DNA of 64,000 nt from Nitrososphaerota archaeon (GTDB taxonomy: Archaea; Thermoproteota; Nitrososphaeria_A; Caldarchaeales; Calditenuaceae). Every line of letters begins with the position of its first letter. Within the stretch, counting starts at the first letter, position 1. The translations under genes and the position numbers were made by a program. This document shows positions 6,240 through 64,000 of this stretch, piece after piece. The stretch covers positions 94,609 to 158,608 of the forward strand of contig JAWBQR010000002.1 of NCBI GenBank assembly GCA_038845265.1, read 5' to 3'. A model generated the notes under the pieces. It did not search any database. It was not told the origin of the DNA and saw nothing but the letters and a program-made list of their open reading frames with translations.

Positions 6240-6290
6240 ACTTCCAAACTCAGACATAATTTATTTTTTTATTGATTATATATAATGTCT

Positions 6291-46308: not shown

Positions 46309-46645
46309 CGGCATGGCTAAGCGGCTCAGGCGATTGGGAGTGGCAGGCTGAGGGCGTCCGGCCGAAGCCTCCGCCCGTACACCTCCACCCCATCAACCCC
46401 CTCTTCTAGGGGAGCCCTCGTCGAGACCCAAGGCCCGTTGCCAGGCCCTATAGGTCTCGATTGGCCGCCTATTTTTGGGAGCGGCTTCGAGCTTAGATGC
46501 TTTCAGCTCTTATCCGCAGGGGCGCGGCTGCCCGGCGTTGCCCTGTAGGACAACCGGTACGCCGTTGGCCCCGGCCCTCCGTTCCTCTCGTACTAGGAGG
46601 GCCTTCCCCTCAGGCGGCCCGCACCCCCAGTAGGTAGAAACCGAT

Positions 46646-46685
<40 letters not shown>

Positions 46686-47325: not shown

Positions 47326-48090
47326 CAACCCAGAACAATGGGTTGGACCATATCTTCGCCCTCGAGTTCATCTTCAAGTCGCTCTAAGGCGCCCGGCGTA
47401 TGGTCTCTGAGGCGCCCACCCGCCTCTCAATCTCAGAGACTATATCACTCAGGCTGTACTTTCTATCAGATGATAATTGATACGCCTTTTCAAGAAGTCT
47501 CCTGAATCCCTCGGCGCTTTTATGCTCTTTCCTCTCTAATCCTTCCACTATCTCTGCGAATCGTTCGAACTCGCTCCACTTAATTATTGGTTTATGCTTT
47601 CTGAAGAATGGGATTATCTTCTCAACGAGGCTTTTTCGCGCATCGACGATGTATTGAAGCGTTGTATCTTCCTGTCCCGGCTTAGGTATGATTCTTCCAC
47701 AGCTAAATGTTCTCTTCAGGATCTCAAGCACTATTCTCTTCTCAGCGCTCTGTGTCACATGGAATACAGGGTCGATAACCCATCCAAACCGCGCGCTGTC
47801 TTGTTTTTTAATGGATATTGAGAAGCATCCTTCACCGTCTACAAGGCCAACTATATAGTAGTTTAGGTATTTCCTTCTGCTTGGCAGACGTCTAGGGTCA
47901 ATCAAGTCTCTGAACTCATTAAGCAATTTTTGCTACACCACATAGTATCCTTCGTAGTGTTTCTTTAATAATTTGAGGCGAGTGGTTCCCTGCGGGTCGG
48001 GGTCATCTGGTCAACCTATGTTCCCTGCTCGGGAGGCTGACCAGTCCATCCTTCCCCGCATATAGCCGGGTTTAACGACTCCCTAACTCG
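47326..48090 (-). mobile_element. Group I intron (765 nt) at about LSU position 1923 (E. coli numbering, inferred)
   Basis: Splits GACTCT^CTTAAGGTAGCC; P1 GACUCU/GGAGUC with U-G at the splice site; P3 CCCGGC/GCCGGG; P4 UGCGGG/CCCGCA; P7 GACCA/UGGUC; S element AAGAUAUGGUCC; terminal G. Confidence 0.93.
47384..47926 (-). CDS. Intron-encoded single-motif LAGLIDADG homing endonuclease
   Basis: YIVGLVDGEGCF, FHVTQ, FSCG, IIPFF. Confidence 0.93.
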   Translation of the reverse strand: MLNEFRDLIDPRRLPSRRKYLNYYIVGLVDGEGCFSISIKKQDSARFGWVIDPVFHVTQSAEKRIVLEILKRTFSCGRIIPKPGQEDTTLQYIVDARKSLVEKIIPFFRKHKPIIKWSEFERFAEIVEGLERKEHKSAEGFRRLLEKAYQLSSDRKYSLSDIVSEIERRVGASETIRRAP

Positions 48091-48695
48091 AGAGTCAGAG
48101 TTACTCCCGGCGCTAGCCGGCCCTTATCCCGGTTGGACCCGGGGTTCAGGTACCGGTGCTGGCCAGGATTGAGAAGCCGTTCAAAGCCTTTCGGCCTTGC
48201 GGCTTCCTATGTTTTTATTAAACAGTCAGGACCCCCTTGTCACTGCGACCTGCCTTCCCAGCCTCTTCGGCAAGGAGGGCAGGCACCCCTTATCCCGAGG
48301 TTACGGGGCCAATTTGCCGAGTTCCCTGGCCCGGAGTCACCCCAGACGCCTTGGCCTTCTCAGCCAGGGGCACCAGTGTCGGATCTAGGCACGGTCTCTC
48401 GGGATCGTTCCAGGCTCCCTTTTCACTGGCTCCAGGGATCAGCCGAAGCCGCCATACGGCGGCCCCATCACTCCTTCACCTGGTTCTCGCCGTTACGGCT
48501 CTCCCCAGGCTTCAGAGCTTGGACAGAGCTACGGCCCTGCTCGGCCTACCCCGAAGCGTCAGGAGCCTGGCTTGCGTTGCCGCACCTACCCGAGAGGCAC
48601 CGGAATCTTAACCGGTTTCCCCTTCGGCCTACCCGGTTAAGGTCGGCCTTAGGACCGGCTTACTCCCGGCTGACGACGCATTGCCGGGAGACCCG

Positions 48696-48733
<38 letters not shown>

Positions 48734-50147
48734 GTCTACTACCACCGGGATCTACATTGGCGGCCGGTCCACGGGACCTCACGGCCCCGCTTCTGCCCAG
48801 CCGCCACGCCCCCCTACCCCCACCCATGCAATGCATGGGTGAGCCCGGGTTTCGGCGGCCCGCTTAGACCCGTCAATTTTCGGGGCCCCCAGCCTCGGCG
48901 GGTAAGCTGTTACGCACTTCTTAGCCGATGGCTGCTTCTAAGCCTACGGCCCCGCTGTTTTAGGCTGGAGACGCCCTTTGGTTTGTCACTTAGCGGGCAC
49001 TTAGGGGCCTTAACCCGCGGTCTGGGTTGTTCCCCTCTCGGTCCAGGAGCTTACCCCCAGTACCCCACTCCCGGGATCTACGGCGCCCGTGGATTCGGAG
49101 TTCGAAAGGAGAGTGGAGCCTCATCGGCCCCTTGCTCCCCCATCGGTGCTCTACCCCACGGGCAACCTCCCCCGAGGCTGTCCTGCGAGACACTTCGGGG
49201 GGAACTAGCTATCACCGGGCTAGATTGGCTTTTAACCCCTAGCCCCAGGTCAGGGGACCGATTTGCACATCAAGACCCCTATTCGGGCCTCGACCGGGGT
49301 TTCCCCCGGCTTCGCCCTGCCCAGGGCTAGATCGCCCGGTTTCTAGCCTCACGGGCGTGACTACAGGCCCTTTCGGACCCCGCCCCTCGCCGGAGCCTAC
49401 TCCGGCTGCGGGCTAGTCGGTTTCCCCACGCCTACGGGCTTTCAACCCTTAGGCTCGCCACACCCGTGAACTCCCCGGCCCGTGTTTCAAGACGGAGTGC
49501 ACGACCCTGGGATTGTCCCCACTCGCTCCTCGTCGGAGCTTCGCGGGGATTTCCCTTTCAGGCCGTGCTCGTCTGTTACCAGCCGGTTTCAGGCGCTTTT
49601 CACCCCCCTCCCGGGGTACTTTTCACCTTTCGCTCACGCTACTGGTCCGCTATCGGTCTTGGGACGTATTTAGCCTTGGAGGCCAGTGGCCCCCAACTTC
49701 CCGCACCATATCCGAGGTGCGGTACTCTGGGACACGGGGCATCGTCCCTCCGGCCTACGCCTACGGGGCTATCACCCTCTATGGCGCCCCATTCCAGGGG
49801 ACTTCGGCTCAGCCATCAGGACGGACCCCCGGCCCATAACCCCACACTCCCCCATGGTTACCCATGAGGGTTCGGTTTGGGCTCCTCCCCGTTCACTCGC
49901 CGTTACTAGGGGAATCCCGTTTTGGTTTCTTTTCCTCCCCCTACTTGGATGCTTCCGTTCGGGGGGTTCCCGATCCCAGGCTTATGGCCCGGGAACGCGG
50001 TGGTTGCCCACCGCGGGAGGTCCCATTAGGAGATCCCCGGATCGAAGCCCGCCTGCGGCTACCCGGGGCTTATCGCAGCTTGCCACGTCCTTCTTCAGCG
50101 CCCAAGCCGAGGCATCCACCGGCTGGCGTGCCCCCGCTTAGTGCCAA

Positions 50148-50180
50148 GGCGCAACCTATTTTGCTGCGCTCCACGTCCAA
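50148..50180 (-). other. 5' arm of the 23S pre-rRNA bulge-helix-bulge processing stem
   Basis: Sense UUGGACGUGGAGCGC-AGCA-aaa-UAGGUUGCGCC. Confidence 0.9.
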
Positions 50181-50283
50181 TGAGCGCGCTCATTGTAAAT
50201 TGACTTACTCGCGCATCCTGCCTATCAGGAAGTTTTTCTCTGATAGGCATTCATGAGCCAAATTAATCATTATCAAGCGCTTG

Positions 50284-50291
50284 CTTATAAA
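50284..50291 (-). promoter_or_regulatory. Probable TATA box of the stand-alone 23S rRNA gene
   Basis: TTTATAAG on the minus strand, about 105 nt upstream of the 5' processing arm. Confidence 0.55.
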
Positions 50292-50423
50292 TGTGTCTAT
50301 CGAATTCTTCGAAGGAATGCCGTAAATTCGGTATTTAGGTCAAGTTTACCCCTAAGAAATGTAATGTCTCTGCATTGGCCAATAAATCAATAGTGATCTT
50401 ATCCAAACTTAATGATAGTAGAA

Positions 50424-52220
50424 CTATTCGAAATCCATTGCTTCATAGATTTCTCTTGGAAGAGCAGGACACTGAATGTTCAGATGATGCTTGCTCAGTT
50501 CTACTTGGATTTTTAGAAGTCTTCTCGCTTCATCGAATTCATGATAAGTGAATGGGTTAAGCTCTCTCAGCCTCTCCCCAGAGAGTCCGGGGACATCCAC
50601 AGGTACTAGGACTTTCTCTCCCCATATTGGATGGGGATTGTATTTGACTGCTCCTCTGACTGCCTGCAGAATGAAGAGCTCTGTCTCCTCGATCGTCGGC
50701 GAAGTCCCACCGATGATTCTTCTATCCCCATACTCATCAATTTCATAGAGCGGCTCAGGTATCTCTATTTCTCTATTATTGATCGTCGTCTTTACCCATC
50801 TGTACTTCGCTACGATTCTTCCAGTCGTGTTTATCTGGTAGATCTCCGGCATGTCTCCCATTTCGTATCGCTTCTTCAAGAATTCATAGAATCTCACCAC
50901 GTGTGCGGTGGAGCTGACGCCCATGGTGAAGGGTAGGCAGTACCTAGTCTCGAAGAGCATACCGAAGGCCTCGCGAGACTGTGCTGGATGGCCCACAGAC
51001 CTGCCGTCAGCCAAAACCTTCGCCGCAAATGCCGGGTCAGTTATCTTGACCCATGCATAATCAATGAAGTATCCAGGGGATAGAAATATGGCGACATTCA
51101 TAGGCCCACTCGATTCAGGGTCCCCATCATAATATCCAGTATCTGCCAAGTGGAGGACAGATCTTGAATTCCTGTTGGGTGCTCCGTAGTAAGTAAAGAG
51201 TTTTCCTTCGAAGCATGGATTGCCATTCACGTCGAACTCTGTGTTTTCATGAAGTGCCTTGGGCGAGGTTGCAGCATTCCATATTGCGACCTGCTTAGAA
51301 TCGACATCCTCCGTCTTCGTCCATGTACCGCATTCAGAACCAATAACTTTGTCCTCAAAAATTGCCACTACGTCGTCGTTTTTTATAACTTGGTCATAAA
51401 CATAGTCCAGTGGATTGATTCCAAATTTCTCGATGTATATCTTCGCATTAGTGTGGTTGAATACATACATGCCGTGTGTAGACTTGCCTGAACCCGTCAA
51501 GCCCCATATACACATGACCACCCTCCTCAAGTCTCCTCTAATGGTTTTGACCGTGAACTCTCTCAGCGCAGCATGTTCACCTATCCCTCCAACCTTGTAT
51601 ACATGATATATCCAATGCGTTAGGAACCCCTTCTTGACCTCGCCCTGATAGGAGCTACAAGTAACAATTGTATAGTTATGGTTCGGGAAGCGAAGGACAC
51701 GCAGCATCTGGCCTGTGCTGCTCATATATGGATTCCCAAGATAGTGAGGTATGCAGAATAGCTCTACATCAGGCTCCTTCGAGGGTTCTCCAGGAAAGCA
51801 TAGCTGCTTCCACCTATACGCAATGTCGGGGAACTGTGGGTCACAGTATAGTCTACACCTCATCTCAACCCTTGTGCCTGGCTTTCCCAGGATAGCATCG
51901 ACCTGTATAAGTGGCCCCTGTGCAAGTATATGTTCAAGCACTCTCTGCATAAGAAACTTATGCTCATATTTCAGGTCTTCATCCCTCTCTATTACTACCG
52001 AACCGGTAGCCGACCTATGCCAGATGTTCGATGCCCAGCCCCACGCCCCGTTTCTGTACTGCGTACCGTACATCTTTGCCCTCTCGAACAGGTCTGGCGG
52101 ATTATTCAGGATAGCCCTTATCCCGCTTCTCTCCTTAACCTCTATGATTCTTCGAAAGCTCTCCCTGAACCCCTCAATAGTAATATCGTCCAGTGGGGGT
52201 ATTATCCTGCTATGCTGCAT
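50424..52220 (-). CDS. pckA: Phosphoenolpyruvate carboxykinase-like protein (probably ATP-dependent family)
   Basis: YQGEVKKG, EHA, GLTGSGKST, NDD, ENT, NSR, INT motifs. Confidence 0.8.
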   Translation of the reverse strand: MQHSRIIPPLDDITIEGFRESFRRIIEVKERSGIRAILNNPPDLFERAKMYGTQYRNGAWGWASNIWHRSATGSVVIERDEDLKYEHKFLMQRVLEHILAQGPLIQVDAILGKPGTRVEMRCRLYCDPQFPDIAYRWKQLCFPGEPSKEPDVELFCIPHYLGNPYMSSTGQMLRVLRFPNHNYTIVTCSSYQGEVKKGFLTHWIYHVYKVGGIGEHAALREFTVKTIRGDLRRVVMCIWGLTGSGKSTHGMYVFNHTNAKIYIEKFGINPLDYVYDQVIKNDDVVAIFEDKVIGSECGTWTKTEDVDSKQVAIWNAATSPKALHENTEFDVNGNPCFEGKLFTYYGAPNRNSRSVLHLADTGYYDGDPESSGPMNVAIFLSPGYFIDYAWVKITDPAFAAKVLADGRSVGHPAQSREAFGMLFETRYCLPFTMGVSSTAHVVRFYEFLKKRYEMGDMPEIYQINTTGRIVAKYRWVKTTINNREIEIPEPLYEIDEYGDRRIIGGTSPTIEETELFILQAVRGAVKYNPHPIWGEKVLVPVDVPGLSGERLRELNPFTYHEFDEARRLLKIQVELSKHHLNIQCPALPREIYEAMDFE

Positions 52221-52374
52221 TTATTCCAAAATTGTTTATTAAACCAGAATTTCAACATTTCCATACGGACTGAACAAAAACCCTCAAAAAATCGCTAATT
52301 TCCATTAAATTTTTAATTTTGAATCATTTAATCCTGTATTTTCATTTGGGAGACGTCTGTAGCCTTCCTCTCGG

Positions 52375-53817
52375 CTAGTCTGTGATGAGGATGTTTATGC
52401 GCTCGAAATCTTGGGGGAATAGCCGACGCATCCTCTCAACGAGGTTGTCTCCACCCACTTTGATCCTTCCAGTCACAACTAAGTCCATATCTCCATAAAC
52501 CTCATCGACTGAGTCTACGTCATCCCAGCTCAGGATCTCGCGCACTATGCTTGGAGTGTCGGCCTGTGGACGCACCTTGACGAGCACGTAGACTCTCTCC
52601 TCTCCGAAGAGGCTCCTGACACTACTCTCATTTACGCTGAATCCTAAAGACTCGGTTAGTAGCTCGACGATTTCTTTAACGCTTACCTGCCCCTCATGCT
52701 CGGCATAGTGCTGCGCAATTTTTTCAGCCGCAGCCCTTGCTTTTTCTGGACCTATCTCATGCCCGCTCCTCCTAGCTATCTCTGCGATGACTTTATGGCT
52801 AAGATGCGGTGTAGCGGCGTACTTAATCGTCTCGAAGTCAAACTTGATCTTGAGTGGAGGCACATAGCCCTCCGGCTTCCTAACAGTCATGGACTGATGG
52901 ACACCTGCCCTTATCGTTCTGGCTTCCTCAGATAATGGATGACGCCAAGGCATCTTTATCCCTGTCAGCTTGCTGAACTCTCTATAAGTGCTGTTCAAAA
53001 ATTCCCTCTTAATTCCAAGGTCTAATCCATGAATATCATGCATCACTGACGCGACTTCGTATAGGTCGGCGATTCCATTTCTGTCGCCTATGCCATAGAT
53101 GCTTACATGCGCCTCGGCGGCGCCCTCTAGGAGGGCCTCCACTGTATTGGCTGAAGCATAGCCGTAATCATTATGGAAGTGACATGCTAGGGGGAGACTA
53201 GTCTTCTCTAATGCGTATCTGAAGAATTTTCTAGTTATGCTCGGCGTCATTAATCCAGCTGTGTCGGGAACACTAACCAGCGTGGCTCCGGACTCTCTAA
53301 GATCCTTCGTGGATTCGAGAAGCCTGTCAAGCTCTGAGAACTTTCCATCCATGTAGAGTCTCGTCACGTCCTCAAGCGTGGCCCTTATGTATCGATACCC
53401 ACTTCTTGATGCTGCCTCGATTGCCTCCCTCATTCTCTCGATTGCGTCGTCGATCTGGATACCGCCTAGCTTATAGCTCAAGTGTAGCTGTGAGACGGCG
53501 ATATAGACGGCGACTCCATAGACATCGTAGGCGCTCATTGCCTCGATATCTCTCATATAGGCTCTCCCATGCATGATTACCTCGACTCCATTATCATTTA
53601 GCAGCTTGACGATTGGCTCGACTTCATCTCTATATGTCCTCGGTGGATAATCAACCGTCACCTCTACGCGTCTAACTCCGACCTTGGCTAGGAGCTCAGC
53701 AATCCTCAGCTTAATCCTCAGGGGAAAGGCCCTGAATAACTCTCCCTCCCTTAACGTCGAGTCAAGCAAAACACCAACAGAGCCCATTTGACTGTCTGTA
53801 AGAATATTATCCTCCAT
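52375..53817 (-). CDS. Homocitrate synthase/IPMS-family enzyme with C-terminal RAM (Lrp/AsnC-type) domain
   Basis: DSTLREGE, PDTAG, HFHND, GIGDRNG, RAGVH; C-terminal VDEVYGDMDL. Confidence 0.82.
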   Translation of the reverse strand: MEDNILTDSQMGSVGVLLDSTLREGELFRAFPLRIKLRIAELLAKVGVRRVEVTVDYPPRTYRDEVEPIVKLLNDNGVEVIMHGRAYMRDIEAMSAYDVYGVAVYIAVSQLHLSYKLGGIQIDDAIERMREAIEAASRSGYRYIRATLEDVTRLYMDGKFSELDRLLESTKDLRESGATLVSVPDTAGLMTPSITRKFFRYALEKTSLPLACHFHNDYGYASANTVEALLEGAAEAHVSIYGIGDRNGIADLYEVASVMHDIHGLDLGIKREFLNSTYREFSKLTGIKMPWRHPLSEEARTIRAGVHQSMTVRKPEGYVPPLKIKFDFETIKYAATPHLSHKVIAEIARRSGHEIGPEKARAAAEKIAQHYAEHEGQVSVKEIVELLTESLGFSVNESSVRSLFGEERVYVLVKVRPQADTPSIVREILSWDDVDSVDEVYGDMDLVVTGRIKVGGDNLVERMRRLFPQDFERINILITD

Positions 53818-55886: not shown

Positions 55887-56678
55887 ATGGCGAGTGAAGG
55901 CGAGGGATCGGCCGACGAATTCGCCGTCTTGAAAAACCCAATTAGAAGAAGAATACTGCTTAGTCTGCATTCAAGAGGCGAACTAACTGCATCTGAGCTG
56001 AAATCAATCACGAGTGTCAGTTACGGTACTCTCTACTACCACTTAGAAATGATGAAGCCCTATATCGAGTCCGTTGGCAGGGGCAGGTTCAGGCTTAACG
56101 ACAATGGTAAGATGCTGTTGAGGAGGATGATGGACGAGCGTGTAGTTGTCGAGGAGCCTAAAGCAGCCGAGTGGTGGGAGATGCTGACGCTTGGCTATCT
56201 CCTCTCGCTGGACAGTAGGAGACTCAGTGGAATAGCAGCGATGGGTGCGGCTTTGCTCGCAATCGCGATCTATGTCTCTTTTAAAATCGATGTCTATCCA
56301 ATACTTCTACATTTTAGGAATGGGCGGCCGCCGATTATTTCTTGGCCTATAAGTTTATCTGCATTATTCGGCTACTTATTGGCTATTTTTTATCTCTTGA
56401 GGAGGGATAATGGCTCTCCTGGAATACTTCTTCTCTCTGCCTCCATCTCGTATCTTCCAGTAGCTGCTTATCTCTCATCCATCTACATAGTCACAGTTCT
56501 GTTAAAGCTTCAACTAGATACGCTCTCGGCCCAAATTGGATTCATGATTTCACATATATGGCAACTAGTTATCCTCGCATCGATCTTGACACACTCATCT
56601 GGCTCAGGATACTCAAAGACGCTTCCAGCAATGCTCTTCTTCTCATACATAAGCCTCATAACATTTCTATACCTATAG
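55887..56678 (+). CDS. ArsR-like wHTH fused to a multi-pass membrane domain
   Basis: LKNPIRRRIL, GTLYYHL, FRLNDNG followed by about 5 TM helices. Confidence 0.82.
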   Translation: MASEGEGSADEFAVLKNPIRRRILLSLHSRGELTASELKSITSVSYGTLYYHLEMMKPYIESVGRGRFRLNDNGKMLLRRMMDERVVVEEPKAAEWWEMLTLGYLLSLDSRRLSGIAAMGAALLAIAIYVSFKIDVYPILLHFRNGRPPIISWPISLSALFGYLLAIFYLLRRDNGSPGILLLSASISYLPVAAYLSSIYIVTVLLKLQLDTLSAQIGFMISHIWQLVILASILTHSSGSGYSKTLPAMLFFSYISLITFLYL

Positions 56679-56774
56679 AACATTAGCCCAAGCATTACTC
56701 AGCTCCATCTCGGGTCAGTAAAAATTACAGAATCTAGGGGAGAGTTGATAAGCAAGGCTAAAAATATCAATATT

Positions 56775-57066
56775 GGGCGAGCGGCTGGGCGGGTCTCGGG
56801 GAGCTCCCGGGGAAGTTCCTCCCTCCGTCAGCGCACCTGGCGCCGCGAGGCGCGTGGGGAGACCCACGGCAACGCCACAGAAACGAGACCCCTCCACGCG
56901 ACATGAAGATGACGCGGCAACAAGCCGTCGATGACGCGTGGAGAATGGATGAAACGGGCGTCCCGGGTGGAGAAAGGCTGGAGCCCATGAGCAGCGCTGG
57001 CAAGGCTCCAGAACCGAGAAGACCGATCCCGCCTAAAACAGAAGGAGGGCTATGGGCCGCACGCCC
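56775..57066 (+). ncRNA. rnpB: RNase P RNA
   Basis: GGAAGTTCCTCCC (CR-I), ACAGAAACG, GATGAAACG, AAAACAGAAGGAGGGCTA (CR-V); P1 gggcg-gcggc pairs with gccgc-cgccc. Confidence 0.93.
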
Positions 57067-57150
57067 CCAAGATGGTTAGAATAAATCAGGTCCAAGGCAT
57101 CAAGCCATACTGCCCAAATTTTATCCACTACTCAGAGAATACACACAAGT

Positions 57151-58146
57151 CTATAGAGGTGGTTGGCGCCTTATACTTACCATGTCCCTTAATAGTAGAT
57201 TGCTTATGAATGTGGATATTTTGCTCCGCATCGAGGGTATGTTTTTTACTGATAGTATGTTGATTCCTTGGCTCTCGGCCAGCTTCTTGTTCTCTCTGCT
57301 AATCTTTGAGGCAGTTATAACTATAGAATTCTCGGCACCAATATCTTTTACCTTGAGGATGAATGACAGTAAGTATTGTTCATCGACCTTGCAGCCCTGC
57401 GGCGCTATCTCTACTGCTAGCCTAATCTTCTTGCATTGAGGGTCCATAGCTATTGCTGAGAACCTATGCATTACTCCTGATAATCCCCTAACTTCTTCAT
57501 TGATTCTTAGAATGAATCCCAAACTGGTGAGCTCTGCTGAAATAATAGGCATTATCCACTCGCTTATCGATTCATACGCATTATGGTCCTCTAGGCCGTA
57601 GGAATAGAGTTCAAGTATTTCTGATTCTTCCTGGCTGAAAAGTAGCCCGCATGACCTGCACATGGCGCGCCATACCGGCTCGACTGGTATGGAGCCGCAA
57701 TTAAGACATGCATAGAACGTGCCTATCATGACATATCTAGGCCTCTCAACTCCACATCTCAAGCACCTCTTTCTCTCCTCCCCACGAATCTCCTCGGCAA
57801 GGAAATGGGTCTGACAATTGATACATTGATAAATCGTTCCACGCTTCACTTTTTGAGACCCGCATTCACTACATGTCAAGACTAGTTGGAGGTCAATGGA
57901 TCCGCATGATGGACAGACAGCCAAGCTGCGAGACAGTCTCCTACAGAGTTCCCCAGATTCTGCGAGCTCTTCTAACAGTTGTCTGACAATCTCTGAGTTC
58001 AGAGATGTTAATCTCTCGGCATCAACATACCTATAACCCCTCTTCATCTTTACTGGCGCATACTCATCAACCAATTTATTCCTAAGAGCCATGAGTAGCT
58101 TCTTTTTAGCCTCGCTGTGATCATTTACTCGCCTAGGCTGCCGCAT
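57151..58146 (-). CDS. Multi-zinc-ribbon (TackOD1-like) protein with C-terminal Mrr-like restriction-endonuclease fold
   Basis: Six CxxC pairs; GLSGVMHRF...AVEI...KVKDI...LAESQGI. Confidence 0.72.
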   Translation of the reverse strand: MRQPRRVNDHSEAKKKLLMALRNKLVDEYAPVKMKRGYRYVDAERLTSLNSEIVRQLLEELAESGELCRRLSRSLAVCPSCGSIDLQLVLTCSECGSQKVKRGTIYQCINCQTHFLAEEIRGEERKRCLRCGVERPRYVMIGTFYACLNCGSIPVEPVWRAMCRSCGLLFSQEESEILELYSYGLEDHNAYESISEWIMPIISAELTSLGFILRINEEVRGLSGVMHRFSAIAMDPQCKKIRLAVEIAPQGCKVDEQYLLSFILKVKDIGAENSIVITASKISRENKKLAESQGINILSVKNIPSMRSKISTFISNLLLRDMVSIRRQPPL

Positions 58147-58298
58147 TACTTATCTACGCAAGATTTTCAATAGTCTATAAGTCTAGCCATAGAAACCTGC
58201 GAGTGGACCGCCGTCTTCACAACAATTATCCATAAAAATCGTATATCCGGAAATAATTTAGGAAGGATTTAATGCCCACCACGGAGGATATATTTTAG

Positions 58299-58847
58299 GT
58301 GAAAACCGACGAGATGAATAAACTCGCAGAGAGAGCGATGGACACGATAACGAGAATAATTAGTCTCATGATTGAATGGATAAGAAAGCATCCATCACTT
58401 GCACTCATAATCCTCGGTGTCATGTTGGTCGCTGCTGTTCCAGGGCAGGGCACCTCTGTCCTAATTCCAGCATTCATCTTCATCCTCGTCGGAGTGGCGT
58501 TATTCATCACTTCACGCGTCTTCTATCAACGAGTAGAGAGTTCTGAAACCTTATTCTCGAAGGGACCGGGGGAGCGGAGTGAACTCGCATTCCTGCTATC
58601 AAAGCTGTTGACCGAGGAAGAGGCGAGGATAGTCGAGGTTCTAGTTGAGTCTAACGGCACAGTTCTTCAGCGAGAGATACCATACAAGACTGGGTTAAGT
58701 AAGCTGAAGGTTCATAGAATCATAACGAGGCTTGCAAGCAGGGGACTACTGGAGAGAAGAAAGGAGAATGGAAAAGTCATAGTTACAATGGATGAGAAAT
58801 TATTGAGATTCTTAAAAGGAGCTGGCCAACCCTCTAGGGAGAAGTGA
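58299..58847 (+). CDS. Two-TM protein with C-terminal wHTH (membrane-tethered regulator)
   Basis: TM hairpin then LTEEEARIV...QREI...GLSKLKVHRII-x-RL. Confidence 0.8.
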   Translation: MKTDEMNKLAERAMDTITRIISLMIEWIRKHPSLALIILGVMLVAAVPGQGTSVLIPAFIFILVGVALFITSRVFYQRVESSETLFSKGPGERSELAFLLSKLLTEEEARIVEVLVESNGTVLQREIPYKTGLSKLKVHRIITRLASRGLLERRKENGKVIVTMDEKLLRFLKGAGQPSREK

Positions 58848-59000
58848 GTAATCATTGACAGAATCTGAAATAGCCCAGTGCTGGGTAGTCATTCCTCAGT
58901 CTAGGGTTCTCGAGTTTTCTTGAGTATCAGTCTCAAAAAATGAGACTCACAATTTCTGGAAATTATTATTTACAATCAGGCAGAGGTAAAAATCAGATGC

Positions 59001-59438
59001 GTGATGACTGAGAGGCTCTGGTTGCAGGAAGGGTTAAACTCGAGAAGAATCACTCTTGAGTGGAACAAGGCTATGTCGTCTCTCAGCAGTAAGATAAGAG
59101 AAGAGATAGAGAGGAAAGTGGCTGGGCTCGGCGACGTCATAAAATTCTCTAGGGCGTTCTTCGCATGGACGAATATTAACTATGGCTTTATAGACATAGT
59201 GATCGGTATTGGCAGGCTAGATGGACGTGATGGTAGCTTCCACTTGATTATTCCATCGATGCCATCTGAGTCTGCCTGGGTCGAGTTTAGGATTGATGAT
59301 GCATGCATCGGAGGCACCGTCGTCCAGGAGACATTGGCCGAAGTGGTTGAGCGCGAAGATGAGCTCCTCAATACCAATAGAAATCATTATTATGGAGAAG
59401 ACACGGATGTATTAGAAGATAATAGTGAAGAGGATTAA
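59001..59438 (+). CDS. Hypothetical protein with acidic tail
   Basis: 145-aa ORF after an AT-rich promoter-like tract; no motif recognised. Confidence 0.55.
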   Translation: MMTERLWLQEGLNSRRITLEWNKAMSSLSSKIREEIERKVAGLGDVIKFSRAFFAWTNINYGFIDIVIGIGRLDGRDGSFHLIIPSMPSESAWVEFRIDDACIGGTVVQETLAEVVEREDELLNTNRNHYYGEDTDVLEDNSEED

Positions 59439-59455
59439 GGGGAGGGAGAAACCTA

Positions 59456-59671
59456 GTGAAGTTAAGTAAAAATAAATCATCTAATCAAGTCAGGATTACC
59501 GTCAGTGTTCCGAAATCCTACGTGGAGCTCATGGATCTGCTCGTTGACCAGAAGCTCTACCATAGCAGGGGCGAGATCGTGCAGACAGCGCTTCGAGACC
59601 TATTAATAAGGGAGGCCGGGCTGAACGGAGAAGGAATAATTCGACTAAAGAAAAGTATTACGTCTCATTAA
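59456..59671 (+). CDS. CopG/Arc/MetJ ribbon-helix-helix protein
   Basis: ITVSVP...MDLLV...YHSRGEIVQTALRDLL. Confidence 0.85.
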   Translation: MKLSKNKSSNQVRITVSVPKSYVELMDLLVDQKLYHSRGEIVQTALRDLLIREAGLNGEGIIRLKKSITSH

Positions 59672-59708
59672 TCTAAAGTTTTTATTATATATTTAACATG
59701 AATTAGAC

Positions 59709-60632
59709 TTGAAATTGGAACTGAATAGACTGAGAAATTCTCTCAGGGGTCTCATCGCCGTAAGCGTAACACCATTTAAGAGAGATTTATCACTCGATGA
59801 GGAGGGTGTAAGAAGCGTTGCTAGATTCCTGCTTGAGAGTGGGCTTGATGCAATCGTTCCATGTGGGTCCATGGGTGAGTGGAACTCTCTCACGGATGAG
59901 GAAGTGAAGAGAATAATCGAGATAACAGTCGATGAGGTTAATGGAAAGATCCCAGTAATCGCCGGAGTTTCCAGCACCTCGAGCATCGCTGCTGCTAGGA
60001 GGGCAAAGATGGCCGAGGACTTAGGGGCGGACGGCCTGCTTGTCCTGCCAGCATTTTACTCTAAATACAATTTTCTGGGTGTGCTCCGTCATTACGAAAT
60101 CGTGGCATCCTCGTCCAATCTAGGAATAATTATTTACAACTTTCCAGACGCTTTGGGATACGAGATTCCCGCGCATGACCTCGATGTGATGATTGAGAAA
60201 ATACCCAGTATCGTCGGCATTAAGGACTCGACGACTGATATGGCTGAGTTCTTCTCTAGGCTTAATCTGCTCGGTGATAGGGTTGCTGTTCTCTTGGGAA
60301 ATGAGCCTTACTGCTTTTATGGACTTATGGCTGGGTCCCCAGGAGTATTCACGAGCATGGCCAACTTTAATCCATACATCATGAGGAGACTCTACAACGC
60401 CGTCTTTGATGGAAAAATAGATGAGGCCAGAAATATTTATCGAGTGATGAGTAGATACTTTGAGGTTAGGCGAAGACTCAGGAGGCCGGCGGCACTGGTA
60501 AAGCAGGCCATGATCTTCAGCGGGCATAGGATAGAGCCTACCGTGAGGCCACCACTAACGGAGCTCGAGGAAAAAGACAAAGAACTAGTCAAGGAAATCG
60601 TCGCCGAGCTGAGAGAATTCACCCACATATAG
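59709..60632 (+). CDS. DHDPS/N-acetylneuraminate lyase family aldolase
   Basis: VTPF, GSMGE, IYNFP, GIKDS (Schiff-base Lys), VRPPL. Confidence 0.9.
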   Translation: MKLELNRLRNSLRGLIAVSVTPFKRDLSLDEEGVRSVARFLLESGLDAIVPCGSMGEWNSLTDEEVKRIIEITVDEVNGKIPVIAGVSSTSSIAAARRAKMAEDLGADGLLVLPAFYSKYNFLGVLRHYEIVASSSNLGIIIYNFPDALGYEIPAHDLDVMIEKIPSIVGIKDSTTDMAEFFSRLNLLGDRVAVLLGNEPYCFYGLMAGSPGVFTSMANFNPYIMRRLYNAVFDGKIDEARNIYRVMSRYFEVRRRLRRPAALVKQAMIFSGHRIEPTVRPPLTELEEKDKELVKEIVAELREFTHI

Positions 60633-60705
60633 AGTGCATATCGGACATTTCTTAATATATATCCCGGAAAAATAGGATGAGTAGAATAAGCAGGTGCAAT
60701 AATGA

Positions 60706-61251
60706 ATGAAGCCACTAAACATACTCATATATGGATCACTAGTCATAGCAATAATCTTCACGGGCACATGGATTTACATTCTATACTCAATATCCGAGAT
60801 TAAGACTCTGGAGACCGCTGCGCCCCTCAGGGCAGAGGCTCAGCCAACGATAGACAACCAAATCTTATTGATGAATGCTTCCTCTTACATTGCGACAGTC
60901 GCGTGGGGAGCACTAGCAGCCGCGCTAGCCTATAAGGGAATAGTCCGATCAGTATGGTCAAAAAGCATGTTCGACTACTCAGTCTTTAAGCTACTCGTAA
61001 AGATGCGGGGCTCAACTACTAGGATGCGCATACTCCAAACACTGGAAAAACCAATGAATAGACAGCAACTAGCAAATGAACTTGGGCTCGACTGGAAAGC
61101 AGTCGACCGACACATCGAGCTCTTATTATCATACGGTCTCATAAAGGAGGCAGATGGAGAGAATGGACGAGTAAAACATTACGTACTGACTGATGATGGA
61201 AAACACGTATTAGAACTTTTAGAAAAACTAAGCCAGCTAAGCACGCCATAA
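60706..61251 (+). CDS. Two-TM protein with C-terminal ArsR-like wHTH
   Basis: Two TM helices; MRGSTTRMRIL...QLANELGLDWKAVDRH...YVLTDDG. Confidence 0.82.
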   Translation: MKPLNILIYGSLVIAIIFTGTWIYILYSISEIKTLETAAPLRAEAQPTIDNQILLMNASSYIATVAWGALAAALAYKGIVRSVWSKSMFDYSVFKLLVKMRGSTTRMRILQTLEKPMNRQQLANELGLDWKAVDRHIELLLSYGLIKEADGENGRVKHYVLTDDGKHVLELLEKLSQLSTP

Positions 61252-61266
61252 AACTATTGATTAGAA

Positions 61267-62847
61267 TTATCTTTGAGGTAAAAATAGCTTGATAATTGTT
61301 GTGAGCCCGACTGTCCTTATGACGTTTATTATGAATACTGAAAATCCCGCGGCCATCATTAATGCGCCCAGCATCGCGACATTCATGTATGGTTCATAAA
61401 CGCCTAGTCCCATTGGGTAAAGCATTCTTCTCAGCATGCCCAGAGTGCCCGCCATCCCCATGGATAGCCCCATCACACCTCCGCCAATAGCCATCAATAA
61501 TAAATGCATATCCGCCATCTTCTCATTAAGCATTTTTCCTGTCAAGAGCGGGAATAATGCATATATCGCCGCGAATATTGTCAATGAAAGCCCCACGAGA
61601 AGCTGAATATGGCCATGTATACCTATCACCCACTGAGTATTATGGAAGAATCTATTCGAGGCATAGTTTGCCTGAATTATGCCGGCTAAACCACCAACGG
61701 CGTAGCCGGCTATCGATGCTAAGACAAACTTGAGAGGAGCTGAATATTTGACTGGCCGAGCCCCCCAAATAGTCGCAAGAACAGCGAATATCGTGAGGCC
61801 CATCGTTAATAACTCTCCCCAAGTGAAGATCTGTCCCTGTATCTGAAGAACAAATGGCTGAGGCGTGTCTGCAAGCATGTGATGGTTCCAGACAAATAAT
61901 GAGACAACAAGGTCTGCTAAGATAACAGTCCGGACAACCTGCTCACCATATAGCCTCCTGTTTAAGAGCAGCGGAACGATTAGATACCAAGTCCCGGCGG
62001 TAAATATCAAGACATTTCCATCAGCAATGAGGTCAAGCCCCCACCAGAAGAAGTTCTTATAAATCAATGGATCAATTAAGGAGATGTTCTGAACTGCCCC
62101 TGGAAGTAGATAATATGCGCCCATAAATGCCAGAACTAGCCCTACACCGCCAATCACAAATGCATTAAGAGTAGTGTCCACACACCCTCTGAATACAGCG
62201 ACGACAAATACCGGATAATTAAATGCCTTCGCGGAATAATGTGGAATCCTCCTTATCTTGGCTAGGAGCCTATCTAGATTGAAGGCTGTGATGACCAATT
62301 CCTTAAAGATGTAACCCGCACCACCCTGACCATCGCTTTTTACGACTCTTGACGGCAGAAAAATTGTGGCGAACATATTGAAGAAAAATACGAGCACACC
62401 GGCAAGTACTAAGGTAACTCCCACCCCGAAAGACATAATGGACAAAGGCGACCAACCCACAAGATCAGCAGCCACGGGAATGGGCCAGTAAAGCGTATAG
62501 AGAGGAGCATAATGAGTAACGAACGTCGTCGTCCAGATAACTGCAATTCCAAGAATCATCAGCCAAAAACTAGTATATGCAGCCCGTTTACTGTAAATGT
62601 CCTTCTTAAGGACATAGGGAACTAGGAAATAGAATGCACCCATAACTGCCATATAGGCCCAGCCATAGATCCCCACGAATGGATGCGCAGTCATCATGGA
62701 GTAGAAATGTCTTTCATCAAAAACATCCGTAAGAAGATTCATTATCCTTAGCCGCATCAGTAGACCCTCGATACCTGCCAGTGCAAGAAATACCAAAGCA
62801 ACAATCACAAACCTCAACGAGAGTATCTTTCTCTCCTCCTCATTCAT
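61267..62847 (-). CDS. Heme-copper oxidoreductase subunit I, atypical (gNOR-like)
   Basis: 12+ TM helices; MTAH, WNHH, HGH retained; helix VI reads WWGLDLIAD instead of WxxxHPxVY. Confidence 0.85.
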   Translation of the reverse strand: MNEEERKILSLRFVIVALVFLALAGIEGLLMRLRIMNLLTDVFDERHFYSMMTAHPFVGIYGWAYMAVMGAFYFLVPYVLKKDIYSKRAAYTSFWLMILGIAVIWTTTFVTHYAPLYTLYWPIPVAADLVGWSPLSIMSFGVGVTLVLAGVLVFFFNMFATIFLPSRVVKSDGQGGAGYIFKELVITAFNLDRLLAKIRRIPHYSAKAFNYPVFVVAVFRGCVDTTLNAFVIGGVGLVLAFMGAYYLLPGAVQNISLIDPLIYKNFFWWGLDLIADGNVLIFTAGTWYLIVPLLLNRRLYGEQVVRTVILADLVVSLFVWNHHMLADTPQPFVLQIQGQIFTWGELLTMGLTIFAVLATIWGARPVKYSAPLKFVLASIAGYAVGGLAGIIQANYASNRFFHNTQWVIGIHGHIQLLVGLSLTIFAAIYALFPLLTGKMLNEKMADMHLLLMAIGGGVMGLSMGMAGTLGMLRRMLYPMGLGVYEPYMNVAMLGALMMAAGFSVFIINVIRTVGLTTIIKLFLPQR

Positions 62848-63443
62848 TGCTGCTCACCAACAATTAGTATCGCGTCAGGCACATACATCCATGGATGCAT
62901 GGGGCCACTATACTCAGTAGACCTAATGTCATATGTTCCAGGCTCTTCGAAGACCCAGACTATCCTATTGATATATGGCTTAGGAACGACTTGCATCTGA
63001 AAGACTAACGTGCCATCCTTCCTAAAAACGCCGAACCCGTAGACCAGATCTTCAGAAATGACCACGAATTCCACCGGGACATTCGCAGGAATCCTAATCG
63101 GCTTCTCGGGCAGAATGAATTTATAATTCCTCATCTCGATCACTACAGTCATTGCTACGTCTCTCTCATAGAGAGTATACCGCATCGAGGGGAGAAGGGG
63201 CGATAGGAATAGAAGATTACCAATAATCGTAACGGAGAATAGAAAAATCAGCCATCTCTTCTCACCCCTTCCCATCTCTCCTTCCCTGTCATGTCCAGCA
63301 TGCCCAGACTCCACACTCCCTCTCCGCCTACTAGTCAAGAAATAAAACACAGCTAAGAAAACAACTACAATCGAGATAATCACGAAGTAAATCATCTCGA
63401 TAATGAACTGGGGATACATTCCTATCAGTATAAGAAAAGGCAA
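62844..63443 (-). CDS. Heme-copper oxidoreductase subunit II lacking CuA ligands
   Basis: Two TM helices plus cupredoxin fold; DLVYGF and STEYSGPMHPWM. Confidence 0.85.
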   Translation of the reverse strand: MPFLILIGMYPQFIIEMIYFVIISIVVVFLAVFYFLTSRRRGSVESGHAGHDREGEMGRGEKRWLIFLFSVTIIGNLLFLSPLLPSMRYTLYERDVAMTVVIEMRNYKFILPEKPIRIPANVPVEFVVISEDLVYGFGVFRKDGTLVFQMQVVPKPYINRIVWVFEEPGTYDIRSTEYSGPMHPWMYVPDAILIVGEQQ

Positions 63444-63505
63444 ATATTAAAAAATTATGAAGACATAAAGAAAATGAAATAATACAAAAATTTGAGTAGT
63501 AAAAT

Positions 63506-64000
63506 TTAGCCCTTTACAGCTCCGAATGTGAGTCCTCTAACGATGTATCTCCTAAGTAGTAGGAAGATGATTAGTGGCGGCAAAATGTTGATGAACGAAC
63601 AAGTAGCAATGTAGTTCCAGGTCGCCCCAGTCACGGTGAAGTATTCAAATGTCGCTAAGCTGAGCGTCCTCGTCGGTCCCTCAGCTAGAATGATTGGGAA
63701 GATTAGGTTGTTCCAGCAGAATACGAACGTGAAGGCCATGCTCACAGCTGCTCCAGGAGCGCATATTGGCAAAATAATCCTTAACAAGATCGTTTTTGAG
63801 TCTGCCCCATCGATTAATGCAGCTTCCTCCACCTCTATTGGAATGGCATCGATAAAGCTCTTGAGGAGCCAGATTGTAAGGGGTATGGCGAAGGTCTGAT
63901 AAACAATAACGAGTCCTACGTATGTTCCCCTGAGTCCTATGTTTGACATCAGGATATAATAAGGAATAGTGAAAACTATGGGTGGCGTTAGTAGCAGGCT
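63506..64000 (-). CDS. Carbohydrate ABC transporter permease, 5' end outside the window
   Basis: EVEEAALIDGA, RYIVRGLTFGAVKG; frame appears to continue past the track start at 63949. Confidence 0.9.
   Translation of the reverse strand, partial: SLLLTPPIVFTIPYYILMSNIGLRGTYVGLVIVYQTFAIPLTIWLLKSFIDAIPIEVEEAALIDGADSKTILLRIILPICAPGAAVSMAFTFVFCWNNLIFPIILAEGPTRTLSLATFEYFTVTGATWNYIATCSFINILPPLIIFLLLRRYIVRGLTFGAVKG

What the first reader, a model, noticed from the sequence alone, without database searches (positions are those of the whole stretch)
61267..63443. gNOR-like heme-copper enzyme in an archaeon: Asp replaces the CuB His and the Tyr, and CuA is lost
Seen: subunit I keeps the heme ligands (MTAH, HGH) and the HH pair, but helix VI reads WWGLDLIAD where O2 reductases have WxxxHPxVY. 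Subunit II has Y for the first CuA His and S for both Cys (STEYSGPMH versus CxExCGxxH). Known: the His-Tyr cross-link is needed for O2 reduction, and as I recall this residue pattern matches the gNOR family proposed to be quinol-dependent NO reductases, described mostly from bacteria. Inference: this will be auto-annotated as cytochrome c oxidase but is more likely an NO reductase or has another chemistry.
Basis: partly seen in the sequence, partly recalled or inferred. Interest (0 to 1): 0.72.

Follow-up and report, generated by a model that had tools for sequence, protein, structure and literature searches.

The report
Archaeal gNOR-type nitric oxide reductase
This two-gene operon encodes a member of the already described but never purified gNOR branch of the respiratory oxidase superfamily; it lacks the residues needed to reduce oxygen and probably reduces nitric oxide, so its routine label "cytochrome c oxidase" is misleading.

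Summary
Subunit I (61267-62847, minus strand, 526 aa) keeps the heme ligands H55, H411 and H413 and the H322-H323 pair. Helix VI reads W268-W269-G-L-D272-L-I-A-D276-G. Asp sits where 53 of 53 other heme-copper sequences have the CuB His, and where 46 of 54 have the cross-link Tyr. Subunit II (62844-63443) has no Cys; Y135, S175 and S179 replace three CuA ligands.

These are the published defining features of gNOR (PMC11214002, PMC8756737). That paper's tables already list gNOR in Caldarchaeales and Geothermarchaeales genomes whose only Asp-type enzyme is 62-81% identical to this one. In my tree the 22 Asp/Asp sequences form one clade (SH-aLRT 100).

In this 93%-complete genome it is the only heme-copper enzyme. 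I found no nirK, nirS, nosZ, narG, cytochrome c or blue-copper gene; cytochrome bd is present.

The most likely function is a quinol-fed NO-to-N2O reductase used against external NO. NO reduction itself remains untested for the whole family.

Side observation: a small nested subclade keeps a full CuA ligand set.

The parts
61267..62847 (-). gNOR subunit I (catalytic heme-copper-superfamily subunit), 526 aa
   Evidence: ORF; PF00115 at E 2.6e-64; 75-86% identical to Caldarchaeales/Nitrososphaerota homologues; inside the Asp/Asp clade.
62844..63443 (-). gNOR subunit II: two predicted TM helices plus a cupredoxin-like domain without CuA. The likely real start is ATG at 63419 (M9).
   Evidence: ORF; weak CoxB/CyoA/SoxA hits; alignment with CuA-bearing subunits II of another archaeon; homologues begin at MYPQF.
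62017..62046 (-). Helix VI motif W268-W-G-L-D272-L-I-A-D276-G277. D272 is at the CuB-His position and D276 at the cross-link-Tyr position.
   Evidence: Coordinates; invariant in 20/20 and 22/22; columns hold His in 53/53 and Tyr 46 / Asn 6 / Glu 2 in other families; bridging sequence P0152. hhalign gives another pairing.
61879..61884 (-). H322-H323, the two remaining ligands of the non-heme metal (helix VII)
   Evidence: Invariant in 22/22; aligned with the HH pair of other families.
62683..62685 (-). H55, low-spin heme ligand (helix II)
   Evidence: aligned with the heme-ligand His of aa3-600.
61609..61617 (-). H411-G-H413, axial ligands of the high-spin and low-spin hemes (helix X)
   Evidence: Invariant in 22/22; aligned with the HxH motif of solved oxidases.
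62767..62769 (-). E27 in helix I, invariant; candidate quinol-site carboxylate
   Evidence: Invariant in 20/20. Aligns without gaps to D74 of the B. subtilis aa3-600 menaquinol oxidase chain in both phmmer and profile alignments. That D74 is a quinol-site residue is recalled, not from a call.
62886..62921 (-). Degenerate CuA loop S175-T-E177-Y-S179-G-P-M-H183-P-W-M186 in subunit II (both Cys replaced by Ser; Glu, His and Met kept)
63039..63041 (-). Y135 of subunit II, at the position of the first CuA His
   Evidence: Alignment with CuA-type subunits II (DVFHNMG, DTMHGVG).
63420..63505 (-). AT-rich intergenic region upstream of subunit II with a TATA-like TTTTAATAT about 20-30 nt before ATG 63419; presumed promoter (inferred only)
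   Evidence: Sequence read; no transcript data.
60706..61251 (+). Convergent neighbour: membrane-anchored winged-helix (ArsR/HTH_20-like) regulator. Linked to the operon only within this genus; no role shown.
   Evidence: Pfam HTH_20 at 1.1e-7; tblastn finds it next to the operon only in L001 and L002 (77-81% identity) among all stored loci.

Best explanation
This is a two-subunit heme-copper-superfamily enzyme of the published gNOR family, in a hot-spring Caldarchaeales (Aigarchaeota) archaeon.

Shown: subunit I binds a low-spin heme (H55/H413) and a high-spin heme (H411). Its non-heme metal site is built from H322, H323 and the carboxylate D272, with a second carboxylate, D276, where O2 reductases carry the cross-linked Tyr. 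Subunit II is a membrane-anchored cupredoxin that cannot bind CuA.

Inferred: the 2-His/carboxylate site holds iron rather than copper. The enzyme reduces 2 NO + 2 e- + 2 H+ to N2O + H2O and cannot carry out four-electron O2 reduction. Electrons come directly from membrane quinol, at a helix I/II site that includes the invariant E27, and not from cytochrome c or a blue copper protein.

I found no NO-forming nitrite reductase in the genome. The enzyme therefore most likely consumes NO made by neighbouring organisms or abiotically in the spring, for detoxification and possibly as an electron sink.
For: Family membership:
- All four published sequence features are met (checked against PMC11214002 and PMC8756737).
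- The protein is 62% identical to the only PF00115 hit in the genome holding locus L024 (isolate JdFR-13). The paper's table lists that genome with GNOR=1 and no other NOR.
- It is 81% identical to the single Asp-type enzyme of Archaeon HR02. That genome's four heme-copper genes are one GHPEVY type, one WWGLDLIAD type and two WAHNLME types, which fits the tabulated GNOR 1 and NNOR 2.
- It is 64% identical to a Methylomirabilota protein (P0051); Methylomirabilis is a published gNOR host.
- The 22 Asp/Asp rows form one clade (SH-aLRT 100, stem length 0.97) apart from 25 His/Tyr rows. In the 50%-identity representative library, identity drops from 47-52% (two full-length representatives) to 29% or less for the next full-length proteins.

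Not an O2 reductase: there is no Tyr or His at the catalytic helix VI positions.

Electron donor:
- Subunit II has no Cys.
- The own genome gave no match to the cytochrome c domain PF13442 or the blue-copper family PF00127; positive controls matched in both searches.
- Cytochrome bd, a quinol oxidase, is present, so a quinol pool is expected.
- E27 aligns with D74 of the aa3-600 menaquinol oxidase.

NO chemistry: the paper argues from an engineered 2-His-1-Glu non-heme iron myoglobin that reduces NO (reference 42 of PMC11214002, seen in the reference list).

Selection: the active-site and degenerate-CuA motifs are near-invariant across archaea and bacteria.
Against: - No gNOR has been purified or assayed. 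The function is a literature proposal.
- In this genome I found no nirK, nirS, nosZ or narG. In one search the positive controls also failed to match, so that search is void.
- Only 4 of the 17 gNOR-positive Caldarchaeales genomes have a NirK-like hit. There is therefore no genomic link to denitrification here.
- The genome is 93% complete, so absences are provisional.
- The gene neighbourhood is not conserved across genera and holds no nitrogen-cycle gene.
- The D272=His and D276=Tyr mapping rests on MAFFT, helix periodicity and one bridging sequence. hhalign disagrees, and I could not obtain a 3D model.
- My tree does not resolve which O2-reductase family gNOR came from (deep nodes have support 39). 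By sequence, A-family chains score above ba3.
- The metal identity and the quinol site are inferences.
Confidence: 0.6

Rival explanations
1. It is a gNOR-family enzyme, but the heme/2-His-carboxylate site does a different reaction from NO-to-N2O reduction. Candidates are NO dismutation, N2O or nitroxyl chemistry, peroxide or partial O2 reduction, or a sulfide-tolerant scavenging reaction.
For: No biochemical data exist for the family. Here it is the only N-oxide-type gene found, with no nitrite reductase. 13 of 17 gNOR-positive genomes in the order lack a NirK-like hit. The two-carboxylate site is unlike any characterised NOR. A relative of qNOR has been proposed to do different chemistry, as a NO dismutase.
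Against: Every characterised Tyr-less member of the superfamily named in the paper's passages (cNOR, qNOR, bNOR, eNOR) reduces NO. A 2-His-1-carboxylate heme/non-heme model reduces NO (reference seen). Stand-alone NORs without a nitrite reductase are common in the published table.
Confidence: 0.2
2. It is an unusual terminal O2 reductase (a quinol oxidase) that works without the His-Tyr cofactor, as the automatic name 'cytochrome c oxidase' implies.
For: It is the only heme-copper enzyme in the genome. The closest solved structures by sequence are quinol and cytochrome c oxidases, and no NOR chain is among the 54 and 59 PDB matches. The heme ligands, the HH pair and the R473-R474 pair are kept.
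Against: No Tyr or His is available at the catalytic helix VI positions. The paper states that O2 reduction in this superfamily requires the redox-active Tyr and found no migrated Tyr in these families. The genome already has cytochrome bd for O2.
Confidence: 0.07
3. It is a decaying, non-catalytic remnant of an oxidase operon.
For: Canonical ligands have been lost in both subunits.
Against: Both reading frames are intact. The replacement residues themselves are invariant across archaea and bacteria down to 44-50% identity. The operon is kept in all 3 genomes of the genus. Near-identical DNA occurs in hot-spring metagenomes of several studies.
Confidence: 0.03

Closest known systems
gNOR family of the heme-copper oxidoreductase superfamily (Hemp & Gennis 2008 and Sievert 2008 as cited in PMC8756737; Murali et al. 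2024, PMC11214002)
   Same: Asp in place of the helix VI metal-ligand His. Asp at the Tyr position. HH pair and heme ligands kept. Two-gene operon whose cupredoxin subunit II lacks CuA ligands. Relatives in Methylomirabilota, Anaerolineae, Bacteroidota, Bathyarchaeia, Caldarchaeales and Geothermarchaeales.
   Different: Nothing that defines the family differs. Local details: it is the sole heme-copper enzyme and the sole N-oxide gene found in this genome, and it comes from a hot spring, whereas the paper stresses sulfidic habitats (7 of 201 gNOR counts are from thermal springs in its environment table). A preprint's remark that gNOR has a His-to-Glu heme-ligand change (10.1101/592808) is not seen here.
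Quinol oxidases of the A family (E. coli cytochrome bo3; B. subtilis aa3-600, PDB 6KOB/6KOC)
   Same: Subunit II is a cupredoxin without CuA. aa3-600 is among the best-scoring solved relatives (phmmer E 1.6e-19, rank 1; profile E 3.5e-27, rank 2). The helix I carboxylate E27 aligns with D74 of aa3-600, and the HNT motif after helix IX is shared.
   Different: Those enzymes keep GHPEVY (His and Tyr) and CuB, and they reduce O2. The other quinol-site positions are not conserved here (L23 at R70, S50 at E97; H47 at H94 is not invariant). The identity of the aa3-600 site residues is recalled.
cNOR and qNOR (NorB-type NO reductases)
   Same: Proposed reaction; heme b3/non-heme metal site with carboxylate(s); no Tyr. 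qNOR also takes electrons from quinol.
   Different: NorB has three His plus Glu at FeB and is related to the C family. No NorB chain appears among the PDB sequence matches. There is no cytochrome c subunit and no fused N-terminal domain here.
nNOR, sNOR/bNOR and eNOR (other Tyr-less families described with gNOR)
   Same: Tyr-less heme-copper relatives with cupredoxin-type second subunits.
   Different: They keep the helix VI His and carry Glu (nNOR, which also has a Met heme ligand), Asn (sNOR/bNOR) or Gln (eNOR) at the Tyr position. In the nNOR operons of Archaeon HR02, subunit II keeps CuA ligands.
Engineered 2-His-1-Glu non-heme-iron myoglobin (Lin et al. 2010; reference 42 of PMC11214002)
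   Same: A heme next to a 2-His/carboxylate metal site; it reduces NO.
   Different: It is an artificial soluble protein. I saw only its title in the reference list.

Membership tests
gNOR | Heme-copper-superfamily subunit I with both heme ligation sites and the helix VII His-His pair | tested here: met
   PF00115 at 2.6e-64; H55, H322, H323, H411 and H413 invariant in 22/22 and aligned with the ligands of other families.
gNOR | Aspartate in place of the helix VI active-site histidine (PMC11214002) | tested here: met
   The D272 column holds Asp in 22/22 family rows and His in 53/53 other rows with a residue there. The D272-to-H322 spacing of 50 equals the His-to-HH spacing of the bridging sequence P0152 (WWGLH...). 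Caveat: hhalign pairs the helix differently, and no 3D model was obtained.
gNOR | Asp ('D') at the position of the cross-linked Tyr; no active-site Tyr (PMC8756737 appendix table; PMC11214002 Dataset S5) | tested here: met
   The D276 column holds Asp in 22/22 family rows, against Tyr 46, Asn 6 and Glu 2 elsewhere. The only Tyr residues within positions 256-310 are Y263, Y288 and Y300.
gNOR | Second subunit with a cupredoxin fold lacking the CuA ligands | tested here: met
   Y135 at the first His, S175 and S179 at the two Cys, and no Cys in the protein. The cupredoxin fold is inferred only from weak CoxB/CyoA/SoxA matches and the alignment, not from a model.
gNOR | Branches with published gNOR members | tested here: met
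   It is 62-81% identical to the only Asp-type heme-copper gene of genomes tabulated as GNOR=1. The Asp/Asp clade has SH-aLRT 100. The labelled reference CBE68178.1 itself was not fetched, and matching of genomes to the table is by isolate name.
gNOR | NO reductase activity with quinol as donor (proposed, never shown for the family) | not testable with these tools
   Indirect only: no cytochrome c or blue-copper gene found, and cytochrome bd present.
A/B-family O2 reductase (cytochrome c or quinol oxidase) | CuB ligated by three His, and the His-Tyr cross-link in helix VI | tested here: not met
A/B-family cytochrome c oxidase | CuA site H...CxExCGxxHxxM in subunit II | tested here: not met
C-family (cbb3) oxidase, the name given by NCBI | CcoN-type subunit I with cytochrome c subunits CcoO/CcoP | tested here: not met
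   The TIGR00780 ccoN match is 65.8 bits against a cut-off of 583 and covers only residues 11-163. No PF13442 cytochrome c domain was found in the genome. The partner gene is a cupredoxin-type subunit II.
cNOR/qNOR | NorB with a three-His-plus-Glu FeB site | tested here: not met
   Asp replaces the helix VI His. No NorB chain is among the 54 and 59 PDB sequence matches.
nNOR | Helix VI His kept, Glu at the Tyr position, His/Met low-spin heme | tested here: not met
   The nNOR genes of Archaeon HR02 read WAHNLME and have Met at the H413 column; the window protein does not.

The most novel reading that the evidence does not exclude
In this genus the gNOR is the only heme-copper enzyme and the only nitrogen-oxide enzyme found in a ~1.4-Mb genome. 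It could therefore be a stand-alone, energy-conserving quinol:NO oxidoreductase. The organism would respire NO supplied by neighbouring organisms or by abiotic chemistry in the spring. Protons would enter through a route that includes the conserved Glu in TM1 of subunit II. This would differ from a detoxifying enzyme or a step of the cell's own denitrification. A second unexcluded point is that a small nested subclade (L042, P0275) has a complete CuA ligand set. The family would then have switched electron donor at least once more after losing CuA.
Probability: 0.12. Interest if true: 0.6.

Novelty: already known. Interest (0 to 1): 0.28.

Why it matters
The family's active site is unique in the superfamily: it is the only case in which a metal-ligand His is replaced. 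No member has been purified. A compact operon from a thermophile is a reasonable source of protein for the first assay or structure.

The practical consequence concerns annotation. These genes are labelled cytochrome c oxidase. That label leads to calls of aerobic respiration and of a "missing" NO reductase. For example, PMC10547907 reports cox genes and no NOR in a Pelearchaeum MAG (passages read). A contig of that isolate carries a 74%-identical homologue (L018).

In the window's genome the correct reading removes the only apparent heme-copper oxidase. Cytochrome bd is then the sole recognisable O2 reductase.

None of this changes what is already published about gNOR.

Tried and rejected
- **Structure prediction.** I submitted alignment A1 several times. 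I have no model, so no fold search and no geometric check of D272 and D276.
- **PDB sequence alignments.** The helix VI alignments from phmmer and the profile search against PDB chains are unreliable. They open a gap inside WW and put Leu on the His, so I did not use them for residue mapping.
- **hhalign.** The A1-versus-A2 comparison gave a competing alignment. I report it but consider it less likely, because it needs two compensating gaps inside one transmembrane helix.
- **Murali et al. 2022 (BBA).** This paper names the gNOR quinol-site residues but is not held. A search for the aa3-600 site residues found nothing useful.
- **nosZ search with PF18764.** The search is void because the positive controls did not match either. 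The TIGR04246 search found nothing.
- **Gene neighbourhood.** It is not conserved in the 8 loci examined.
- **Expression.** No RNA holder is listed. Two runs labelled metatranscriptomic, but flagged as probably DNA, gave short low-depth contigs scattered over all genes of 56000-64000. This says nothing about expression.
- **Earlier findings.** The scan's earlier findings held nothing near this place.
- **Supplements.** The paper's SI appendix PDF, Dataset S2 and Dataset S3 (its alignment and tree) could not be read. The authors' own residue mapping and figure for gNOR were therefore not seen.
Full report
**What is there.** The upstream one is 62844..63443 (199 aa from a TTG start). The downstream one is 61267..62847 (526 aa). 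The stop of the first overlaps the start of the second by 4 nt.

The 526-aa protein matches PF00115 (COX1) over its whole length at E 2.6e-64. It matches every curated NCBIfam oxidase model only far below cut-off; for example CtaD scores 135 bits against 670, and ccoN 66 bits against 583.

The 199-aa protein has only weak CoxB/CyoA/SoxA similarity, with TIGR02866 at 4e-8. Homologues begin at the internal MYPQF, and an AT-rich stretch with a TATA-like element lies just upstream. The true start is therefore probably ATG 63419 (inference).

Subunit I carries H55 (MTAH), H322-H323 (NHHM) and H411/H413 (HGH). Helix VI reads W268-W-G-L-D272-L-I-A-D276-G277. The protein has ten His in all and none between residues 203 and 322. 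Within positions 256-310 the only Tyr residues are Y263, Y288 and Y300.

Subunit II has no Cys. It reads LVY135GFGV and S175-T-E177-Y-S179-G-P-M-H183-P-W-M186. I aligned it with three CuA-type subunits II taken from the A-family and nNOR operons of Archaeon HR02. Y135 falls on the first CuA His and S175/S179 fall on the two Cys. The Glu, the second His and the Met are kept.

**It is not chance.**
- In an alignment of 20 homologues reaching 50% identity, W268, W269, G270, L271, D272, A275, D276, G277, H55, H322, H323, H411 and H413 are invariant.
- Among ORFs found just upstream of subunit I in 102 related loci there are 89 unique sequences. Of these, 84 carry a recognisable loop motif, and 83 of the 84 have Ser/Ser.
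- Of 120 database homologues of subunit II, 118 have Ser/Ser.

**Which residues replace His and Tyr.** I aligned 78 sequences with MAFFT. They comprised 22 family members, 53 other superfamily proteins from the representative search, and 3 from HR02.
- The D272 column holds Asp in 22/22 family rows and His in 53/53 other rows that have a residue there.
- The D276 column holds Asp in 22/22 family rows, against Tyr 46, Asn 6 and Glu 2 elsewhere.
- G277 is a one-residue insertion.

Three further points agree with this mapping.
- W268, D272 and D276 repeat the i, i+4, i+8 spacing of the canonical W...H...Y.
- D272 to H322 is 50 residues, compared with 49 in the canonical forms.
- A bridging sequence, P0152, reads WWGLHSYVN. 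It has the same WWGL prefix, has His where gNOR has D272, and has the same spacing of 50 to its HH pair.

Against it, hhalign of the family profile versus a profile of ten His/Tyr sequences opens a 6-column gap and a 5-column gap. It pairs GNVLIF with GHPVVY. I consider two compensating gaps inside one transmembrane helix less likely. Under either alignment the catalytic His and Tyr are absent.

**What it is.** The pattern is the published definition of gNOR.
- PMC11214002 (abstract and passages read) describes gNOR as the first superfamily member to replace an active-site His, with Asp. It describes the family as lacking the active-site Tyr. Its cupredoxin subunit II is said to miss the CuA residues, as in E. 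coli bo3, and it is proposed to oxidise quinol.
- PMC8756737 (appendix table) gives 'D' as the gNOR residue at the Tyr position.

I tied this protein to the published classification through genomes.
- The paper's Dataset S8 (searched; part 1 read) lists GNOR=1 for a JdFR-13 genome and no other NOR. The genome holding locus L024 (isolate JdFR-13) has a single PF00115 match. It reads WWGLDLIAD and is 62% identical to the window protein.
- The table lists GNOR 1 and NNOR 2 for HRBIN02. The HR02 genome has four heme-copper genes: one GHPEVY type, one WWGLDLIAD type (81% identical to the window protein) and two WAHNLME types with Met at the H413 column.
- The window protein is also 64% identical to a Methylomirabilota protein. 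Methylomirabilis oxyfera is a reference gNOR host.

I matched genomes to table rows by isolate name only, and I did not fetch the labelled reference sequence itself.

**Phylogeny.** I built a quick IQ-TREE tree (LG+C20 PMSF, SH-aLRT) from 55 of the 78 aligned rows. I left out 11 fragments and thinned 12 long fused A-type forms.
- The 22 Asp/Asp rows form one clade with support 100 on a stem of 0.97.
- The window protein sits with archaeal sequences (P0011, P0013, P0021, P0024).
- That archaeal group is sister to a bacterial Terriglobales/Methylomirabilota group.
- The 25 His/Tyr rows lie elsewhere.
- Deep nodes are unresolved (support 39). The published statement that gNOR derives from the B family is therefore not tested here. 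By sequence, A-family chains score above ba3.

In the 50%-identity representative library only two full-length representatives fall in the family (52% and 47% identity). The next full-length proteins have 29% identity or less. The family is sharply bounded.

**Distribution.**
- A pattern-plus-tblastn scan of species-representative genomes returned at least 594 confirmed stretches. One of the two patterns may also hit other families, so this is not a count of gNORs.
- The best 80 include many Anaerolineae and Bathyarchaeia.
- Within the window's own order, 17 of 76 genomes have a homologue at E<=1e-80. Among high-quality genomes it is 12 of 43, and by genus 5 of 15. All 3 genomes of the window's genus have it.
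- Near-identical DNA is held by hot-spring metagenome runs of nine studies, two of which may be the source.

**Genomic setting.** The genome is 1.37 Mb in 34 contigs and 93% complete.
- This is its only PF00115 gene.
- I found no NirK, NirS, NosZ or NarG. The PF18764 nosZ search is void because its positive controls did not match.
- I found no cytochrome c domain PF13442 and no blue-copper protein PF00127.
- Two adjacent cytochrome bd matches are present.

Across the order, NirK-like hits (E<=1e-20, none above the curated cut-off) occur in 20 of 76 genomes. They occur in only 4 of the 17 gNOR-positive genomes. The published table shows the same orphan pattern for several Caldarchaeales entries, which have GNOR=1 and zeros in every other column.

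The neighbours of the operon differ between genera.
- An HTH_10 regulator is adjacent in 3 of the 8 loci examined.
- The convergent membrane-anchored HTH gene at 60706..61251 is linked to the operon only within the genus.

**Mechanism.**
- *Shown:* the ligand set, the lack of CuA, the lack of Tyr, the conservation and the family placement.
- *Inferred:* a heme/non-heme-iron site with H322, H323 and D272, plus D276 nearby. It would reduce NO to N2O and could not perform four-electron O2 reduction. The paper's supporting argument is an engineered 2-His-1-Glu myoglobin with NOR activity (title seen in the reference list).
- *Quinol as donor (inferred):* this follows from the missing CuA, from no cytochrome c or cupredoxin carrier being found, and from the presence of a quinol-using bd oxidase. 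In addition, the invariant E27 aligns without gaps to D74 of the aa3-600 menaquinol oxidase. That D74 belongs to the quinol site is my recollection.
- *Subunit interface (inferred):* E177 of subunit II is retained, and H402-N-T of subunit I aligns with the HDT/HNT motif of solved oxidases. In A-type oxidases these positions hold the Mg/Mn site between the subunits (recalled). That may explain why the degenerate loop stays invariant.
- *Physiological role (inferred):* with no nitrite reductase of its own, the organism most likely uses the enzyme on external NO.

**Verdict.** However, the family, its residue pattern, its proposed function and its presence in these archaea are already in print. 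What remains open is the biochemistry of the whole family. I rate the finding as already known, with modest interest as a candidate for the first characterisation of a gNOR and as a clear annotation error.

**Side results.**
- Two subunit II homologues (L042/P0271 and P0275) keep the full CuA ligand set. The subunit I of L042 is an Asp/Asp type. It pairs with P0057 (SH-aLRT 92) inside a well-supported 16-row archaeal gNOR clade (99) that also contains P0056, which is probably the JdFR-13 enzyme whose subunit II lacks CuA.
- I paired P0275 with P0057 only because both report the same longest-contig length, so that pairing is unverified.

Noticed in passing
L042:1713-3827 (Thermofilaceae archaeon MAG contig); proteins P0271, P0275, P0057, P0071: Two gNOR-type operons keep a complete CuA ligand set in subunit II (DVTHGFGV ... 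RCTEYCG..H..M) while subunit I is the Asp/Asp type. That is 1 of 84 motif-bearing upstream ORFs and 2 of 120 database homologues. Their subunits I pair up (SH-aLRT 92) inside a well-supported 16-row archaeal gNOR clade (99) that also contains P0056, probably the JdFR-13 enzyme whose subunit II lacks CuA. This suggests CuA was regained, or lost repeatedly. The P0275-P0057 pairing is assumed from equal contig length only.
   Followed up: partly
window 46315-50143 (-), ORF 47384-47926 (-): The archaeal 23S rRNA gene spans 3829 nt against a 2987-position model (full-length match). It contains, on the same strand, a 180-aa ORF that matches LAGLIDADG_1 (2.8e-15). This is probably an rRNA intron with a homing endonuclease.
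   Followed up: partly
window 50144-53817 and the whole window: No SSU rRNA and no tRNA were detected anywhere in the 64-kb window. The gene upstream of the 23S rRNA is PEPCK-like. The 23S rRNA therefore appears unlinked from the 16S rRNA.
   Followed up: no
window 56777-57064 (+): Archaeal RNase P RNA, 173.6 bits, full-length. The short ORFs listed over it are presumably spurious.
   Followed up: no
window 63393-63407 (-), subunit II TM1: A Glu in the first TM helix of subunit II (QFIIEMIYF) is kept in the archaeal members aligned. Dataset S1 of PMC11214002 lists a subunit II Glu (E-(II)15) as the K-channel entrance in T. thermophilus ba3. This could mark a proton path.
   Followed up: no
L018 (Pelearchaeum maunauluense MAG contig), 6001-7596: PMC10547907 reports coxA/coxB and 'no nitric oxide reductase' for this MAG and infers aerobic respiration. 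The contig carries a 74%-identical gNOR homologue with an STEYSG-type subunit II.
   Followed up: partly
L018:7601-8269, L024:7508-8194, L008:4734-5336: An HTH_10 (Bat-type) regulator gene lies directly beside the gNOR operon in 3 of the 8 loci examined, in three different genera. The window has a different, membrane-anchored HTH gene instead.
   Followed up: partly
subunit I H55, H411, H413: A preprint (10.1101/592808) states that gNOR has a His-to-Glu heme-ligand substitution. All three heme-ligand His are invariant in the 22 family rows examined here.
   Followed up: yes
window 1-64000: G+C rises from about 0.40-0.44 in the first 24 kb to 0.49-0.55 between 24 and 52 kb. There is also a strong AT skew (-0.28) at 20-24 kb. 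Only part of this is explained by the rRNA gene.
   Followed up: no
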